Source of the DNA: a phage
DNA length: 64,000 nt
Direction: 5' to 3' (one strand)
Assembly (NCBI GenBank): GCA_036253495.1
Contig: GCA_036253495.1_4125.1
Shown one piece after another: positions 49,911 through 59,513 of the stretch. Position 1 is the first letter of the stretch. Each line of letters starts with the position of its first letter. The notes under the pieces are model-generated. The model saw only the letters and a list, made by a program, of their open reading frames with translations. It had not been told where the DNA came from and did no database searches. The position numbers were made by a program, and so were the translations under genes.

Positions 49911-49939
49911 TTGACATTAAATGTGTTCATTGCTATAAT
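49911..49939 (+). promoter_or_regulatory. consensus sigma70 promoter (TTGACA-17-TATAAT)
   Basis: Perfect -35 and -10 hexamers with 17 nt spacer, about 32 nt upstream of 49972. Confidence 0.65.
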
Positions 49940-51114: not shown

Positions 51115-51672
51115 ATGTTCTTTGACCAAACATTTACGTTGTACCATGATTCTGGAAAAGTAGAGATTGTTGATAATCTTCTACAATATATTGCTGACCA
51201 CGAAGGGGTTGATCTATTTCACAGCAAAATGAAATTTGATTTATCCGAGTTCAACAAGAAGAATCGTGAATCATTCTGGAAAAATCGTTTCTATTACGAA
51301 ATGTATCCTGAAAAGTTTGTAGGTTATTATCTCTGTACTGAAAAAGGTTTATTAGTATCGCCTGATTTACTTATGGGTGAATACATGGTTCTCTATAATG
51401 AGTACTGGGAACATAAACGTAAGGCCCGTGACACCGAATGGCGACACAAACGCTCTTACATGTACAAGCATAACCATTCTCGCTACAAACGTCCTAAGAC
51501 CCAACAAGAGCGTCGTATGGCGTGTGCAGTACTGAAGGATGATGGTGAACCTGATATTCGTGGAAAACGCAAGATGCGTTCACTACCGACATATTGGGAC
51601 GATTTTAGAACAAGACACAGTACTGGCTGGAAATACAGTACTAAGCGTAAAAAACAATACAAAGGGAGCTAA
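51115..51672 (+). CDS. hypothetical basic protein
   Basis: 185 aa; Arg/Lys-rich C-terminal half. Confidence 0.65.
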   Translation: MFFDQTFTLYHDSGKVEIVDNLLQYIADHEGVDLFHSKMKFDLSEFNKKNRESFWKNRFYYEMYPEKFVGYYLCTEKGLLVSPDLLMGEYMVLYNEYWEHKRKARDTEWRHKRSYMYKHNHSRYKRPKTQQERRMACAVLKDDGEPDIRGKRKMRSLPTYWDDFRTRHSTGWKYSTKRKKQYKGS

Positions 51673-51687
51673 TGCTCCCTATTTTTA
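51664..51687 (+). terminator. probable rho-independent terminator
   Basis: Hairpin gggagc taat gctccc followed by TATTTTTA; overlaps the stop codon. Confidence 0.5.
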
Positions 51688-51700
51688 TAGGTTAAACGTT

Positions 51701-52030
51701 ATGAGCAAAGTTGATGTTGATGTAGTTATTGGCTATATTGAAATTGAACAGTGTTGTATTGATACATTGATTGACACTCTTAATAAGTACCGTGCAGAGT
51801 ACAAGGGTAACATTAGTCTTTCACCGGACGGTGGTTACGGTGGATTCGATGGATACAATGTAATTTGGACACGAGAAGAAACGGATGAAGAATACAATAT
51901 CCGTTTGCAGTTAGAATCACAACGTCGCGAAGAAATTGAACGTCAAGAAATGAAACATTTAATGAACAAGAAATCATTAAGTGCTGAAGAGAAATCTAAA
52001 CTTCTAAAATATATCAAGGATTACATGTAA
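51701..52030 (+). CDS. hypothetical protein
   Basis: Track ORF 51539..52030 trimmed to first ATG after upstream stop. Confidence 0.6.
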   Translation: MSKVDVDVVIGYIEIEQCCIDTLIDTLNKYRAEYKGNISLSPDGGYGGFDGYNVIWTREETDEEYNIRLQLESQRREEIERQEMKHLMNKKSLSAEEKSKLLKYIKDYM

Positions 52031-52677
52031 TGAAAAATGTAACTCAAGAAAAGATTCTGTATCACGCTAAACATAACGGTTCTTTCAATATTATTAGCCG
52101 AGAATACGTTGGTCATATGGCTAAGTTGATTGATAATTTACTGGAATTTGATTTCCTGAATTGGGAAACTAATGATCTTTGGTATGAATACGCGGGACAG
52201 CAATGGGAACGTGATTATGATAATGCAACACATTCATACACTATCACCAAAGCAGGTGAAGTTCGTTTAGCCATTATGCGTTGTGCATATGCTTACAAAA
52301 ATCACAAAGGTGAAGAAAAACATACTCGTAGAAATGAAGAGCTATTGCTTCTCATGGAATCAGCAAAAATTACAATGCATGATTTGTTCCACCACCCACG
52401 TTGGTATGAAAATCTAACCAAAGCAGAGTACAAAGCGTTGCGTTACATTGATGAACAGAACAAAACGCCAATTTTAGTAGATGAAAGTGACGGTGAACTA
52501 AGCCTCAAATGTGTATTTGACAATTCCAGTACTGAGAGCATTGCTGACATTTCAGTACAAATGGCACTTAAAGCTATGGAACTATTCAAGACGCAATACC
52601 AAGGTACAAATGCCGATGAAATTGAGCGTGAGTTCATTACACGCGTACAGATTGCATTAGCTAAGACCAAAACTTAA
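52030..52677 (+). CDS. hypothetical protein
   Basis: ORF track; ATGA overlap. Confidence 0.65.
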   Translation: MKNVTQEKILYHAKHNGSFNIISREYVGHMAKLIDNLLEFDFLNWETNDLWYEYAGQQWERDYDNATHSYTITKAGEVRLAIMRCAYAYKNHKGEEKHTRRNEELLLLMESAKITMHDLFHHPRWYENLTKAEYKALRYIDEQNKTPILVDESDGELSLKCVFDNSSTESIADISVQMALKAMELFKTQYQGTNADEIEREFITRVQIALAKTKT

Positions 52678-52695
52678 AAACATTGGAAAATAATC

Positions 52696-52881
52696 ATGAA
52701 AAGACTTGCATATGTATTAGTATTAATGTTAATATCATCTTGTTCACTAATGGACTTTAAATACAGTACACAATACTATTCAGTGTTTGAAGAAGCACCA
52801 GATAACTGTTTACTAGAAAGTAATCAGATGTATGTCATTAATGGTGAAACAAAATTACAATACATTTGCAAAGAGGATTAA
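52696..52881 (+). CDS. small putative lipoprotein
   Basis: 61 aa; signal peptide with lipobox-like LISSC. Confidence 0.55.
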   Translation: MKRLAYVLVLMLISSCSLMDFKYSTQYYSVFEEAPDNCLLESNQMYVINGETKLQYICKED

Positions 52882-52884
52882 TTC

Positions 52885-53118
52885 ATGAAAAAGATTATCA
52901 TTTCTTGTTTAGTTGCTGGGGCAACCTTACTCGTAGGCTGTGCACCTAAAGTTAACGAGATGGATGCAGAAATGATCCGTAAGGACTTAACTAAACTGAA
53001 TCATAATGGCACACTCTATGCCTGTCATGAGATGCGACACGGACAGGATCTAAATCTTATGTGTCGCAAAATTGTTAACCGCAAACGCTTAACAACAGTC
53101 CCAAAGGATGCTCAATGA
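52885..53118 (+). CDS. small putative lipoprotein
   Basis: 77 aa; signal peptide with lipobox LLVGC. Confidence 0.6.
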   Translation: MKKIIISCLVAGATLLVGCAPKVNEMDAEMIRKDLTKLNHNGTLYACHEMRHGQDLNLMCRKIVNRKRLTTVPKDAQ

Positions 53119-53140: not shown

Positions 53141-53500
53141 ATGAGTGATTATGTTGCATTCCTACATCGTTTTGGTAAAGCTGAAGAAAAGCACATCATT
53201 CGTCTACCAGCTTATGGTGAGAAAGACTGGTACAAAAGTACTATCAGTGTAGGTGCATTCCGTGACCGTGAAGCTGAATTCTTTCTCGGTAAACAACATG
53301 AACGAGAGGTACTTTGCTCCCTTTGGCGTTTAGACGAATGGGATGAAGAGAATGCAAGAACTGCGGTATCAATGCTTAAAATTGTTGGCATTGAGAACTA
53401 TCAGCACCCATATGATCTCTTACCTACGTTTGAACATGCTTCGTTATTTGACTTTTACAAAGCAATAGGGTACGATTATAAAAAGAAACGTTACATTTGA
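53141..53500 (+). CDS. hypothetical protein
   Basis: ORF track. Confidence 0.65.
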   Translation: MSDYVAFLHRFGKAEEKHIIRLPAYGEKDWYKSTISVGAFRDREAEFFLGKQHEREVLCSLWRLDEWDEENARTAVSMLKIVGIENYQHPYDLLPTFEHASLFDFYKAIGYDYKKKRYI

Positions 53501-53507
53501 GGATATC

Positions 53508-54125
53508 ATGACAACATCACAAAAGTACTGGTGGATTTTGGGACACCCTGAATTTATCAATAAAGACTACGTTGATGCTCGCATTGATGTTGAGCCACAC
53601 GATGTATGTCCCATCACCAATCGTATTGAAGATTATCCGGTACTGAATACAAAAACACAGTACTGGATCGAAATGCTAACTCCGTTTTTCGATGAAGACG
53701 AAGGGAAGTTCGTTCGTGGACATGAGTACGAGTTGGATTGTGGTGGTGATACATATGAAGAAGCAATTGATAATTTATACACCAAGATCCTAGAAAAGTA
53801 TGGTGATTACACACAAGAAGAAGCGGAAGCTAAGTATGATGCTGTACATCAGCGTGTAGTGACGAAAAGTGCTTTTCCTTCATCAATGTTCCAACCAGAA
53901 GAACTTCGTAACACATGGGAGAACTCAAAATTATCTGAAATTGAACTTGATTATATTCCAGGTGATATTGAAAACATTAAAGGTACAATAAAAGCCTTGA
54001 AAGAATTCCTCAAAACTTGTACAATAGAAGAACAAGAAGAGGCAAACAAACATTTACAATCAGAGGAATGTAAACTATGGGTGCTTGAGGAATCACTTAG
54101 AAAAGGTATAGACTACAACATATGA
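53508..54125 (+). CDS. hypothetical protein
   Basis: ORF track. Confidence 0.65.
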   Translation: MTTSQKYWWILGHPEFINKDYVDARIDVEPHDVCPITNRIEDYPVLNTKTQYWIEMLTPFFDEDEGKFVRGHEYELDCGGDTYEEAIDNLYTKILEKYGDYTQEEAEAKYDAVHQRVVTKSAFPSSMFQPEELRNTWENSKLSEIELDYIPGDIENIKGTIKALKEFLKTCTIEEQEEANKHLQSEECKLWVLEESLRKGIDYNI

Positions 54126-55396: not shown

Positions 55397-55421
55397 TAAA
55401 GCACCCAAGTGGTGCTTTTTG
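55397..55421 (+). terminator. rho-independent terminator
   Basis: Hairpin agcacc/ggtgct followed by TTTTT. Confidence 0.65.
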
Positions 55422-59505: not shown

Positions 59506-59513
59506 TATAAATA
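59506..59513 (+). promoter_or_regulatory. T4-type late promoter TATAAATA
   Basis: Exact TATAAATA about 32 nt upstream of the tail-fibre-like gene start. Confidence 0.6.

What the first reader, a model, noticed from the sequence alone, without database searches (positions are those of the whole stretch)
52696..53118. Two adjacent small lipoprotein genes
Both ORFs have signal peptides ending in lipobox-like cysteines (LISSC, LLVGC). Small phage lipoproteins in lytic phages often mediate superinfection exclusion or mask receptors.
Basis: inference. Interest (0 to 1): 0.35.

Follow-up and report, generated by a model that had tools for sequence, protein, structure and literature searches.

The report
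Two small jumbo-phage outer-membrane lipoproteins
Two neighbouring genes of an E. coli jumbo phage encode tiny lipid-anchored proteins predicted to sit under the host outer membrane; they are real and conserved in this phage group, are not the phage's lysis (spanin) genes, and their suggested role in blocking a second infection is plausible but untested.

Summary
ORF1 (52696-52881, 61 aa) and ORF2 (52885-53118, 77 aa) are the only two of 232 ATG-ORFs in the window that pass a PROSITE-type lipoprotein rule. The lipobox Cys is invariant in all homologues, while the signal-peptide cores vary freely.

The window is an Asteriusvirus jumbo phage, 98% identical to Escherichia phage A4. The genes correspond to A4_481 and A4_482, both annotated "hypothetical".

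Each belongs to its own orphan family, found only in RaK2-like jumbo phages. No Pfam, PDB or structural match was found apart from their own family, including none to the exclusion lipoproteins Llp and Rtp45. Each mature domain (5.5 and 6.9 kDa) has two invariant Cys and a predicted beta-rich fold, and none has Asp at +2, which predicts outer-membrane sorting.

They are not spanins. A canonical i-spanin/o-spanin pair (A4_506/507) lies about 20 kb away, and neither lipoprotein has a membrane-protein neighbour. They are also not an obligate pair, because many relatives carry only one.

ORF2's mature domain is under very strong purifying selection, whereas ORF1 evolves fast and is often lost.

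Superinfection exclusion or receptor masking is the best guess (about 0.35). It is neither supported nor refuted by sequence. This is an ordinary, modestly interesting finding.

The parts
52696..52881 (+). ORF1: 61-aa prolipoprotein gene (= A4_481), a member of phrog_22308
   Evidence: ORF call. 100% identical to the phage A4 product. phrog_22308 at E=8.5e-15. The family is confined to RaK2-like jumbo phages.
52696..52740 (+). ORF1 signal peptide (aa 1-15, MKRLAYVLVLMLISS), ending in the lipobox I-S-S before Cys16
   Evidence: Passes the PROSITE-type rule. The lipobox is conserved across 18 family members.
52741..52878 (+). ORF1 mature domain: 46 aa, 5.5 kDa, pI 4.2. Lipidated Cys1, +2 Ser, and invariant Y, C, N-G, Y, C.
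   Evidence: The AlphaFold2 model has pLDDT 88 and is a three-stranded antiparallel sheet. Invariant columns are, mass and pI.
52873..52877 (+). Shine-Dalgarno GAGGA for ORF2, lying inside the last codons of ORF1 with a 7-nt spacer
   Evidence: Read from the sequence.
52885..53118 (+). ORF2: 77-aa prolipoprotein gene (= A4_482)
   Evidence: ORF call. 100% identical to the A4 product, and present in all 37 Asteriusvirus-type records found. 17 protein clusters among 5.8 billion.
52885..52938 (+). ORF2 signal peptide (aa 1-18, MKKIIISCLVAGATLLVG), with lipobox L-V-G before Cys19
   Evidence: Passes the rule. The G-C is present in every homologue that includes the N-terminus while the hydrophobic core is hypervariable. 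pN is 0.4-0.5 here against 0.09-0.12 in the mature part.
52939..53115 (+). ORF2 mature domain: 59 aa, 6.9 kDa, pI 9.3. Lipidated Cys1, +2 Ala, invariant C29 and C42 (mature numbering), and a basic disordered tail.
   Evidence: The AlphaFold2 model has pLDDT 66: one helix plus three strands, with the two Cys opposite each other across the hairpin by register. 29 invariant columns. Mass and pI.
51663..51680 (+). Context: terminator-like hairpin upstream of the gene block that contains the two lipoprotein genes
   Evidence: Consensus scan only.
55398..55418 (+). Context: first terminator-like hairpin downstream, the probable 3' end of the transcription unit
   Evidence: Consensus scan only.
49911..49939 (+). 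Context: nearest perfect sigma-70 consensus promoter upstream (TTGACA-17-TATAAT with TG)
   Evidence: No promoter-like site lies directly before ORF1.

Best explanation
ORF1 and ORF2 are two independent phage genes, each encoding a very small prolipoprotein.

**Processing and location (inferred from the standard E. coli lipoprotein pathway).** In the infected cell each precursor is exported by Sec. It is then lipidated on the lipobox cysteine by Lgt, cleaved by signal peptidase II and N-acylated by Lnt. [quoted passage not shown] There a compact, probably disulfide-stapled, beta-rich domain of 46 or 59 residues hangs on a tether of only a few residues, directly under the outer membrane.

**Most likely job (inference by analogy, not shown).** Each binds the periplasmic face of an outer-membrane component, or an incoming phage part. 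This makes the infected cell and its debris refractory to further adsorption or DNA entry, which is superinfection exclusion in the manner of T5 Llp or Rtp45.
- ORF2 would have an invariant target, given its near-frozen mature domain.
- ORF1 would have a variable or dispensable one, given that it evolves fast and is often lost.

**Confidence.** That they are genuine outer-membrane lipoproteins: about 0.9. That their function is exclusion or masking: about 0.35. The figure given for this explanation is for the function.
For: **Lipoprotein signal**
- Only these two of 232 ORFs in the window pass the rule.
- The lipobox Cys is conserved in both families despite hypervariable hydrophobic cores.
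- LipoP SpII score 10.3 is recorded for the Muenster homologue, and UniRef names several homologues 'Lipoprotein'.

**Outer-membrane sorting**
- Residue +2 is S, V, T, K or A in family 1 and A, S or T in family 2, never Asp.

**Real, selected genes**
- ORF2's mature domain has pN 0.09-0.12 while synonymous sites are saturated (pS 0.74-0.88).
- Each mature domain has two invariant Cys.
- The fold prediction is confident for ORF1 (pLDDT 88).

**Not lysis genes**
- The neighbours have no transmembrane segment.
- A canonical spanin pair exists elsewhere in the genome.

**Accessory and fast-evolving, as exclusion genes often are (general knowledge, not tested here)**
- ORF1 is present in only 14 Escherichia records and absent from the PBECO4 group.
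- dN/dS is 0.6-0.9 for ORF1 against 0.10-0.23 for the flanking genes.
- The locus is a divergence valley of 45-75% nucleotide identity, against 80-95% in the flanks.

**Same design as known exclusion lipoproteins**
- Llp is a 7.09-kDa beta-rich lipoprotein of the inner leaflet of the outer membrane, with one essential disulfide (bioRxiv 10.64898/2026.03.26.714494). It binds the periplasmic face of FhuA (PMC9586334).
- Rtp45 is about 6 kDa and binds LptDE at the periplasmic outer-membrane interface (PMC12685063).

**Genomic setting**
- The region is rich in sigma-70-type promoters and poor in T4-late-type motifs, and the genes sit among nucleotide-metabolism genes. This is compatible with expression before late genes.
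Against: - No homology of sequence or fold to Llp, Rtp45, Cor-type or any annotated exclusion family was found. The only Llp match is to the signal peptide (E=0.15).
- The genes are not adjacent to any tail-fibre or receptor-binding gene, whereas llp lies immediately upstream of the T5 receptor-binding-protein gene (bioRxiv 10.64898/2026.03.26.714494).
- No protein receptor is known for these phages. The relative EJP2 uses LPS (PMC10213699), and flagellar structures were suggested for SHEFM2K (PMC11895373). A periplasmic lipoprotein cannot mask LPS directly.
- The ORF1 family is conserved in phages of Escherichia, Klebsiella, Serratia, Yersinia, Erwinia, Salmonella and Xanthomonas. That fits a general envelope target better than a host-specific receptor.
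- Expression timing is not known. No promoter lies directly upstream of ORF1.
Confidence: 0.35

Rival explanations
1. Envelope takeover for a purpose other than exclusion. The lipoproteins bind and modulate a conserved host periplasmic or outer-membrane machine (for example a peptidoglycan hydrolase, protease, Bam/Lpt/Tol-Pal component or stress sensor). The aim would be to keep the envelope intact or tune lysis timing during the long jumbo-phage cycle.
For: - ORF2's mature domain is almost invariant over deep synonymous divergence, which implies an invariant partner.
- The ORF1 family spans phages of seven host genera.
- The locus is syntenic within a nucleotide-metabolism and early-type region rather than with tail genes.
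- Sharanji-infected cells filament and bulge before lysis (PMC11895373), so these phages do remodel the envelope.
Against: - No similarity to any known inhibitor or envelope-protein family.
- ORF1 is dispensable in many relatives.
- Nothing points to a particular target.
Confidence: 0.3
2. A Spackle-like block of the incoming phage. One or both lipoproteins bind a conserved phage-borne component that enters the periplasm, such as the tail lysozyme or hub, and stop DNA delivery by superinfecting relatives. This is a special case of exclusion, acting on the phage rather than on a receptor.
For: - The tail-lysozyme and hub genes are present in the A4 genome (A4_583/584).
- The conserved ORF2 domain fits a conserved phage target.
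- Conservation across host genera is easier to explain with a phage target than with a host receptor.
Against: - No similarity to T4 Sp or to any lysozyme-inhibitor family.
- The idea is entirely inferential.
Confidence: 0.15
3. They are o-spanins or otherwise part of the lysis cassette, that is, outer-membrane lipoproteins that fuse the membranes at lysis.
For: - They are small outer-membrane lipoproteins with Cys residues, as o-spanins are.
- A paper on the related Eneladusvirus phages could not find an i-spanin (PMC7760394), which left room for unusual arrangements.
Against: - No neighbouring gene has an N-terminal membrane anchor.
- A canonical pair exists about 20 kb away: A4_506 has a TMD at residues 6-24 and matches phrog_1152 'Rz-like spanin' at E=8e-26. 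The overlapping lipoprotein gene A4_507 has weak Rz1/LysC matches.
- ORF1 and ORF2 contain only 1-2 Pro and have no C-terminal TMD, so they are not u-spanins.
- They match no spanin family in PHROGs or NCBIfam.
- ORF1 is absent from many relatives.
Confidence: 0.03
4. ORF1 and ORF2 act together as a heterodimer: an acidic and a basic partner forming one two-component outer-membrane module.
For: - The genes are adjacent with a 3-nt gap, and ORF2's ribosome-binding site lies inside ORF1.
- The net charges are opposite (pI 4.2 and 9.3).
- Serratia BF and Yersinia fHe-Yen9-04 also carry two overlapping small lipoprotein genes.
Against: - The two families occur independently.
  - ORF2 occurs without ORF1 in PBECO4-like phages (represented here by fEgEco12), EJP2 and Hallingskeid.
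  - ORF1 occurs without ORF2 in RaK2, Muenster, Munch and XaC1.
- The upstream lipoprotein of BF is not clearly an ORF2 relative (hhalign probability 29%).
- The two evolve at very different rates.
Confidence: 0.1

Closest known systems
T5 Llp (lytic conversion lipoprotein; PDB 7QJF, 8A60)
   Same: - A lytic-phage gene for a roughly 6-7 kDa lipoprotein.
- Predicted to reach the inner leaflet of the outer membrane.
- A beta-rich compact fold, with a short helix plus strands in ORF2.
- A pair of Cys that can form an internal disulfide.
- Precursors of similar length (61 and 77 aa here; the chain deposited for Llp in 8A60 is 83 aa).
   Different: - No detectable homology in the mature domain. The only profile match is to the signal peptide, at E=0.15.
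- No Foldseek match.
- Not adjacent to a receptor-binding-protein gene.
- Neither the target nor an exclusion phenotype is known.
Rtp45 / small-siphophage exclusion lipoproteins acting on LptDE (PDB 9RPS)
   Same: A very small periplasmic outer-membrane lipoprotein with a short tether, so it could act at the periplasmic rim of a barrel protein.
   Different: - No sequence or structure match.
- A different phage type (jumbo myovirus) and a different genomic setting.
Two-component spanins (lambda Rz/Rz1; T4 PseT.2/PseT.3)
   Same: The o-spanin is also a small outer-membrane lipoprotein with functionally important Cys.
   Different: - There is no partner i-spanin gene next to ORF1 or ORF2.
- The phage has its own spanin pair elsewhere.
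- ORF1 and ORF2 are not Pro-rich.
- They match no spanin family.
phrog_22308, with 'putative outer membrane lipoprotein' CPT_Muenster_205 and K64-1 'outer membrane lipoprotein'
   Same: ORF1 is a member of this family (E=8.5e-15; 34% identity to the Muenster protein). It has the same lipobox and the same invariant Y/C/NG/Y/C scaffold.
   Different: - The family has no assigned function.
- The Muenster protein carries an extra 35-residue C-terminal extension. In RaK2 the matching sequence lies at the C-terminal end of a separate downstream ORF.

Membership tests
Bacterial prolipoprotein (signal peptidase II substrate; PROSITE PS51257-type signal) | Positive n-region, uncharged hydrophobic core, lipobox [LVI][ASTVI][GAS]-C, with the Cys at position 15-35 | tested here: met
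   Both ORFs pass, and they are the only two of 232 ORFs in the window that do.
Bacterial prolipoprotein (signal peptidase II substrate; PROSITE PS51257-type signal) | Lipobox Cys conserved in homologues while the rest of the signal peptide drifts | tested here: met
   The Cys is conserved in both alignments. The signal peptide has pN 0.4-0.5 against 0.09-0.12 in the mature part.
Bacterial prolipoprotein (signal peptidase II substrate; PROSITE PS51257-type signal) | Dedicated predictor (LipoP/SignalP) or experimental lipidation (globomycin sensitivity, palmitate labelling) | not testable with these tools
   The only predictor result is second-hand: the Muenster record notes LipoP SpII 10.35 for the ORF1 homologue.
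Lol-sorted outer-membrane lipoprotein (E. coli +2 rule) | No Asp at position +2 after the lipidated Cys | tested here: met
   ORF1 has +2 Ser and ORF2 has +2 Ala. No homologue has Asp at +2. By contrast A4_189, elsewhere in the genome, has Asp at +2.
o-spanin of a two-component spanin | Gene embedded in, overlapping or adjacent to an i-spanin gene (N-terminal TMD plus a periplasmic coiled coil) | tested here: not met
   No TMD in A4_479, A4_480, A4_483 or A4_485. The spanin pair is A4_506/507.
o-spanin of a two-component spanin | Match to a spanin family profile | tested here: not met
   No spanin PHROG or NCBIfam hit for ORF1 or ORF2, whereas A4_506 hits phrog_1152 at 8e-26.
Unimolecular spanin (T1 gp11 type) | Outer-membrane lipoprotein signal plus a C-terminal transmembrane domain | tested here: not met
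   The only hydrophobic segment in either protein is the signal peptide.
Llp family (T5-like exclusion lipoproteins) | Sequence homology of the mature domain | tested here: not met
   phmmer and profile searches of the PDB hit 8a60_B only over residues 1-23, which is the signal peptide (E=0.15).
Llp family (T5-like exclusion lipoproteins) | Shared fold | tested here: inconclusive
   Foldseek against the PDB gave nothing below E=1. Domains of 46-59 residues are near the limit of the method, and the ORF2 model is only pLDDT 66.
Llp family (T5-like exclusion lipoproteins) | Gene adjacent to the receptor-binding-protein gene | tested here: not met
   The neighbours are hypothetical proteins and dCMP deaminase. 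Tail genes lie more than 15 kb away.
Llp family (T5-like exclusion lipoproteins) | Confers resistance to the same phage when expressed, and binds the receptor | not testable with these tools
   This needs an experiment.
Colicin lysis / bacteriocin release lipoproteins | Match to Pfam Lysis_col | tested here: not met
   No Pfam hit at E<=0.1 other than one chance match.
phrog_22308 (ORF1 only) | Profile match over the full length | tested here: met
   E=8.5e-15, residues 1-60 against profile positions 1-64 of 66.

The most novel reading that the evidence does not exclude
The two families would be a clade-wide envelope module of RaK2-like jumbo phages. They would be miniature disulfide-stapled outer-membrane lipoproteins with folds unrelated to Llp or Rtp45, each locking a conserved outer-membrane machine or the incoming tail tip from the periplasmic side. 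If so, they would be the first exclusion factors described for this jumbo-phage lineage and a convergent third and fourth solution to the 'Llp problem'. ORF2's frozen sequence would point to an essential, invariant target.
Probability: 0.2. Interest if true: 0.55.

Novelty: new member of a known kind. Interest (0 to 1): 0.3.

Why it matters
If one of these proteins blocks infection from the periplasmic side, its binding partner would identify the still unknown terminal receptor or entry route of Asteriusvirus and RaK2-like jumbo phages. That is relevant because these phages are being proposed for therapy.

It would also add an independent structural solution to the few known exclusion lipoproteins. 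ORF2's almost invariant 59-residue domain would make a convenient bait for a pull-down.

If they do nothing of the kind, they remain two of the hundreds of small accessory genes of unknown function in these genomes.

Tried and rejected
**Homology and family searches**
1. Pfam, PHROGs, NCBIfam and PADLOC gave only phrog_22308 (unknown function) for ORF1 and signal-peptide-only matches for ORF2.
2. Sequence and profile searches of the PDB hit only Llp's signal peptide.
3. AlphaFold2 models searched with Foldseek against the PDB and BFVD returned no match apart from ORF1's own family.
4. Exhaustive phmmer of mature ORF2 against 1.84 billion representative proteins found one cluster, its own. The word-indexed searches found 17 and 18 clusters, with the long contigs all about 350 kb and the named sources jumbo phages.
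5. I tested whether ORF1 and ORF2 are paralogues. hhalign aligns only the signal peptides, so this was rejected.
6. I tested whether the second lipoprotein of Serratia BF (BF_127) is an ORF2 relative. This is unresolved (probability 29%). EJP2_141 and Hallingskeid_542 clearly are relatives (98%).

**Other ideas**
7. The spanin hypothesis was rejected after scanning the stretches of the A4 genome that were fetched.
8. Metal binding by the C-H-x3-H-x7-C motif of ORF2 is unlikely, because the second His is not conserved in the EJP2/Hallingskeid branch.

**Literature and analyses not done**
9. The literature searches found no functional study of these genes and no established receptor for Asteriusvirus.
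10. I did not attempt a co-variation analysis of ORF1 type against tail-fibre type. The A4-type allele occurs in a single record and these phages carry many fibres, so the result would not have been interpretable.

Full report
**What the window is**

The 4-kb stretch around the finding is 98% identical over its full length to Escherichia phage A4 (ON286972, 355.5 kb, genus Asteriusvirus). It is 83-87% identical to some 40 other jumbo phages of the 121Q/PBECO4 type. The two ORFs correspond to A4_481 and A4_482, both deposited as "hypothetical protein", and their products are 100% identical to the A4 proteins. The window is not A4 itself. It lacks the 804-bp gene A4_484, which in A4 lies between the homologues of 53141-53500 and 53508-54125.

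**Checking the observation**

ORF1 is 52696-52881 (61 aa) and ORF2 is 52885-53118 (77 aa), both on the + strand and separated by 3 nt.
- Their N-termini are MKRLAYVLVLMLISS|C and MKKIIISCLVAGATLLVG|C.
- I applied a PROSITE PS51257-type rule: no charge in the six residues before the box, the box itself, Cys at position 15-35, and K/R in the first seven residues. Among the 232 ATG-ORFs of at least 40 aa on both strands of the window, only these two pass.
- Across the stretches of the A4 genome scanned (all but ~640 bp, with the window standing in for A4 50640-114640), only five annotated genes pass.
- The lipobox Cys is present in every aligned homologue that includes the N-terminus. The hydrophobic cores are so variable that they hardly align.
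- In ORF2 the non-synonymous divergence of the signal peptide is 0.4-0.5, against 0.09-0.12 for the mature part.
- The depositors of Klebsiella phage Muenster recorded a LipoP SpII score of 10.3 for the ORF1 homologue. UniRef labels several homologues "Lipoprotein".

I could not run SignalP or LipoP myself.

**The two families**

*ORF1.* ORF1 belongs to phrog_22308, which has no assigned function (E=8.5e-15).
- By tblastn it occurs in 41 phage records, and all but one short Klebsiella record (phiKp_21, 46.8 kb) are 337-386 kb RaK2-like jumbo phages.
- Their hosts are Escherichia, Klebsiella, Serratia, Yersinia, Erwinia, Salmonella and Xanthomonas.
- A profile search of 5.8 billion proteins found only 18 clusters.
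- The invariant positions are Y27, C38, N49, G50, Y56 and C58, plus the lipobox Cys.

*ORF2.* ORF2 occurs in all 37 Asteriusvirus-type records found (33 Escherichia and 4 Salmonella), at 71-88% identity.
- It has clear distant relatives in E. coli phage EJP2 and Erwinia phage Hallingskeid (hhalign probability 98%).
- An exhaustive phmmer search of 1.84 billion representative proteins with the mature domain found only its own cluster.

*Relationship between them.*
- The two families are not detectably related to each other beyond the signal peptide.
- They are also not an obligate pair.
  - PBECO4-like phages have lost ORF1. In fEgEco12, the one such locus I read, a WGR-domain gene sits at that position, and WGR genes are annotated under the match in PBECO4, UB and slurp01; none of these has an ORF1 homologue by tblastn.
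  - EJP2 and Hallingskeid have only the ORF2 type.
  - RaK2, Muenster, Munch and XaC1 have only the ORF1 type.
- Serratia BF and Yersinia fHe-Yen9-04 carry the ORF1 type preceded by a further overlapping small lipoprotein gene. Its relationship to ORF2 is unresolved.

**The proteins**

| | ORF1 mature | ORF2 mature |
|---|---|---|
| Length | 46 aa | 59 aa |
| Mass | 5.5 kDa | 6.9 kDa |
| pI | 4.2 | 9.3 |
| Pro residues | 1 | 2 |
| Residue +2 | Ser | Ala |
| AlphaFold2 pLDDT | 88 | 66 |
| Predicted fold | three-stranded antiparallel sheet | short helix, three strands, disordered basic tail |

- Each has two Cys besides the lipidated one.
- No family member has Asp at +2. By the E. coli Lol rule this predicts sorting to the outer membrane (established knowledge; sequences).
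- In the ORF2 hairpin the two invariant Cys face each other by register, which fits a disulfide. For ORF1 I could not verify the geometry.

**Comparison with known structures and families**

- Foldseek against the PDB gave nothing better than E of about 2-4 for either model. That library includes Llp (7QJF, 8A60) and the LptDE-Rtp45 complex.
- Against BFVD, ORF1 matched only its own family.
- Sequence and profile searches of the PDB hit Llp only over its signal peptide (E=0.15).
- Pfam, NCBIfam and PADLOC gave nothing.

**Evolution**

Between this phage and 121Q or Turkey3 the flanking genes are 80-95% identical at the DNA level. The 460 bp holding the two lipoprotein genes drop to 45-75%.
- ORF2's mature domain combines saturated synonymous divergence (pS 0.74-0.88) with pN of only 0.09-0.12. 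This indicates old alleles under very strong purifying selection.
- ORF1 shows pN 0.39 against pS 0.53 (dN/dS 0.6-0.9). The flanking genes give 0.10-0.23.
- ORF2 therefore appears to have an invariant partner. ORF1 is fast-evolving and dispensable.

**Are they spanins?**

This was the main rival reading, and it fails.
- None of the four neighbouring genes has a transmembrane segment.
- Elsewhere in A4 (123571-124256, about 20 kb downstream and outside the window) there is a textbook pair.
  - A4_506 has an N-terminal TMD at residues 6-24 and matches phrog_1152 "Rz-like spanin" at E=8e-26.
  - The overlapping gene A4_507 encodes a 104-aa lipoprotein with weak Rz1/LysC matches.
- A paper on the related Eneladusvirus phages had reported an o-spanin-like gene without an i-spanin (PMC7760394). 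In A4 both partners are recognisable.
- ORF1 and ORF2 also lack a C-terminal TMD, so they are not unimolecular spanins.

**Context and timing**

All genes here are on the + strand, among PhoH, dCMP deaminase and anaerobic ribonucleotide reductase genes.
- There is no promoter-like site directly before ORF1.
- Terminator-like hairpins lie at 51663-51680 and 55398-55418, and a perfect sigma-70 consensus promoter at 49911-49939.
- Near-consensus sigma-70 promoters are frequent on this strand of the window, whereas the T4-late-type TATAAATA is rare.
- The related jumbo phage PA5oct depends on the host RNA polymerase and uses TTGAC/TATAATA promoters (PMC7318152).
- Expression before the late phase is therefore plausible but not shown.

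**How it most likely works**

*Shown or strongly supported:* these are two real, selected genes for Sec/SPII-type prolipoproteins.

[quoted passage not shown] There a small, probably disulfide-stabilised domain sits on a very short tether.

*Inferred by analogy only:* they bind the periplasmic face of an outer-membrane component, or an incoming phage part, and make the infected cell and its debris refractory to further infection. The models for this are T5 Llp and Rtp45.
- Llp is a 7.09-kDa beta-rich lipoprotein with one essential disulfide that binds FhuA from the periplasm (PMC9586334; bioRxiv 10.64898/2026.03.26.714494).
- Rtp45 is about 6 kDa and binds LptDE (PMC12685063).

I put about 0.35 on exclusion by binding a host outer-membrane component. 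I put about 0.15 more on the Spackle-like variant that acts on the incoming phage, and about 0.3 on some other envelope-directed role. I put about 0.03 on a lysis or spanin role.

Several points count against the Llp analogy.
- There is no homology.
- The genes are not linked to a receptor-binding gene.
- The receptors are unknown or non-protein. EJP2 uses LPS (PMC10213699), and flagellar structures were suggested for SHEFM2K (PMC11895373).
- The ORF1 family is conserved across phages of seven host genera.

**Novelty and verdict**

The lipoprotein nature of the ORF1 family is already noted in some database records (Muenster, K64-1, UniRef). The ORF2 family is annotated at most as "membrane protein". 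The papers I searched contain no functional study of either.

They are two further orphan families of a known kind of phage gene, the small outer-membrane lipoprotein. They are of modest interest, mainly as baits for finding the entry route of RaK2-like jumbo phages.

Noticed in passing
window 53501-53507 (junction between the genes at 53141-53500 and 53508-54125): Relative to phage A4, the window lacks the 804-bp gene A4_484, a 267-aa protein with an N-terminal CxxC...C zinc-ribbon-like motif. 121Q-type relatives instead carry a 56-aa zinc-ribbon-like gene between the ORF2 homologue and the 119-aa gene. This short stretch is an indel hotspot, and the window phage is a close relative of A4 rather than A4 itself.
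   Followed up: partly
outside the window: L014 9571-10256 (phage A4 123571-124256): A canonical two-component spanin pair, annotated only as hypothetical. A4_506 has an N-terminal TMD and matches phrog_1152 'Rz-like spanin' at E=8e-26. The overlapping gene A4_507 encodes a 104-aa outer-membrane lipoprotein. The annotated lysozyme A4_528 (L014 18703-19629) has an N-terminal hydrophobic segment (residues 9-27), so it may be membrane-anchored or SAR-type.
   Followed up: partly
outside the window: L018 9590-9835 and 10203-10478 (phage A4 323590-324478): Two further lipobox-bearing genes lie close together. A4_189 (81 aa) has Asp at +2, which predicts retention in the inner membrane. A4_191 (91 aa, phrog_31263) has four Cys in its mature part. 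Both are annotated as hypothetical.
   Followed up: no
L004 1353-2438 (phage fEgEco12 g227-g228); L010 1681-2937 (Xanthomonas phage XaC1): In fEgEco12 a WGR-domain gene, preceded by a 34-aa remnant ORF, occupies the position of ORF1; WGR genes are also annotated at this locus in PBECO4, UB and slurp01, which likewise lack ORF1. In XaC1 the ORF1 homologue and a WGR gene sit side by side. This suggests an ancestral arrangement from which one or the other was lost.
   Followed up: partly
L006 2290-2689 (Serratia phage BF_127/BF_128); L009 1290-1689 (Yersinia phage fHe-Yen9-04 g120/g121): Eneladusvirus phages carry a further 82-aa lipoprotein gene (lipobox LSS|C, with a Y-x-C...M-C-K-K motif reminiscent of ORF2). 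It overlaps the start of the ORF1 homologue by 38 nt. Its homology to ORF2 is ambiguous (hhalign probability 29%).
   Followed up: partly
window 15798, 23418 and 49911 (+ strand): Three perfect TTGACA-N16/17-TATAAT promoters, and many sites with one mismatch, all lie on the + strand. TATAAATA occurs only at 59506 and 62734 on the + strand. This looks like a region transcribed by the host RNA polymerase (early or middle).
   Followed up: no
window 52030-52677: The 215-aa upstream protein (phrog_15672) is a shortened form of a 283-286-aa protein found in Muenster (gp204), RaK2 (ORF510, noted as similar to KVP40.0035) and Hallingskeid. The N- and C-terminal ends are conserved and the middle is deleted.
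   Followed up: no
window 51539-52030 versus 51701-52030: The mechanical ORF list gives a 163-aa ORF starting at 51539. That start would run through the terminator-like hairpin at 51663-51680. The A4 annotation, and the phrog_25568 match (residues 55-163 only), indicate that the real start is the ATG at 51701, only 20 nt after the hairpin.
   Followed up: partly
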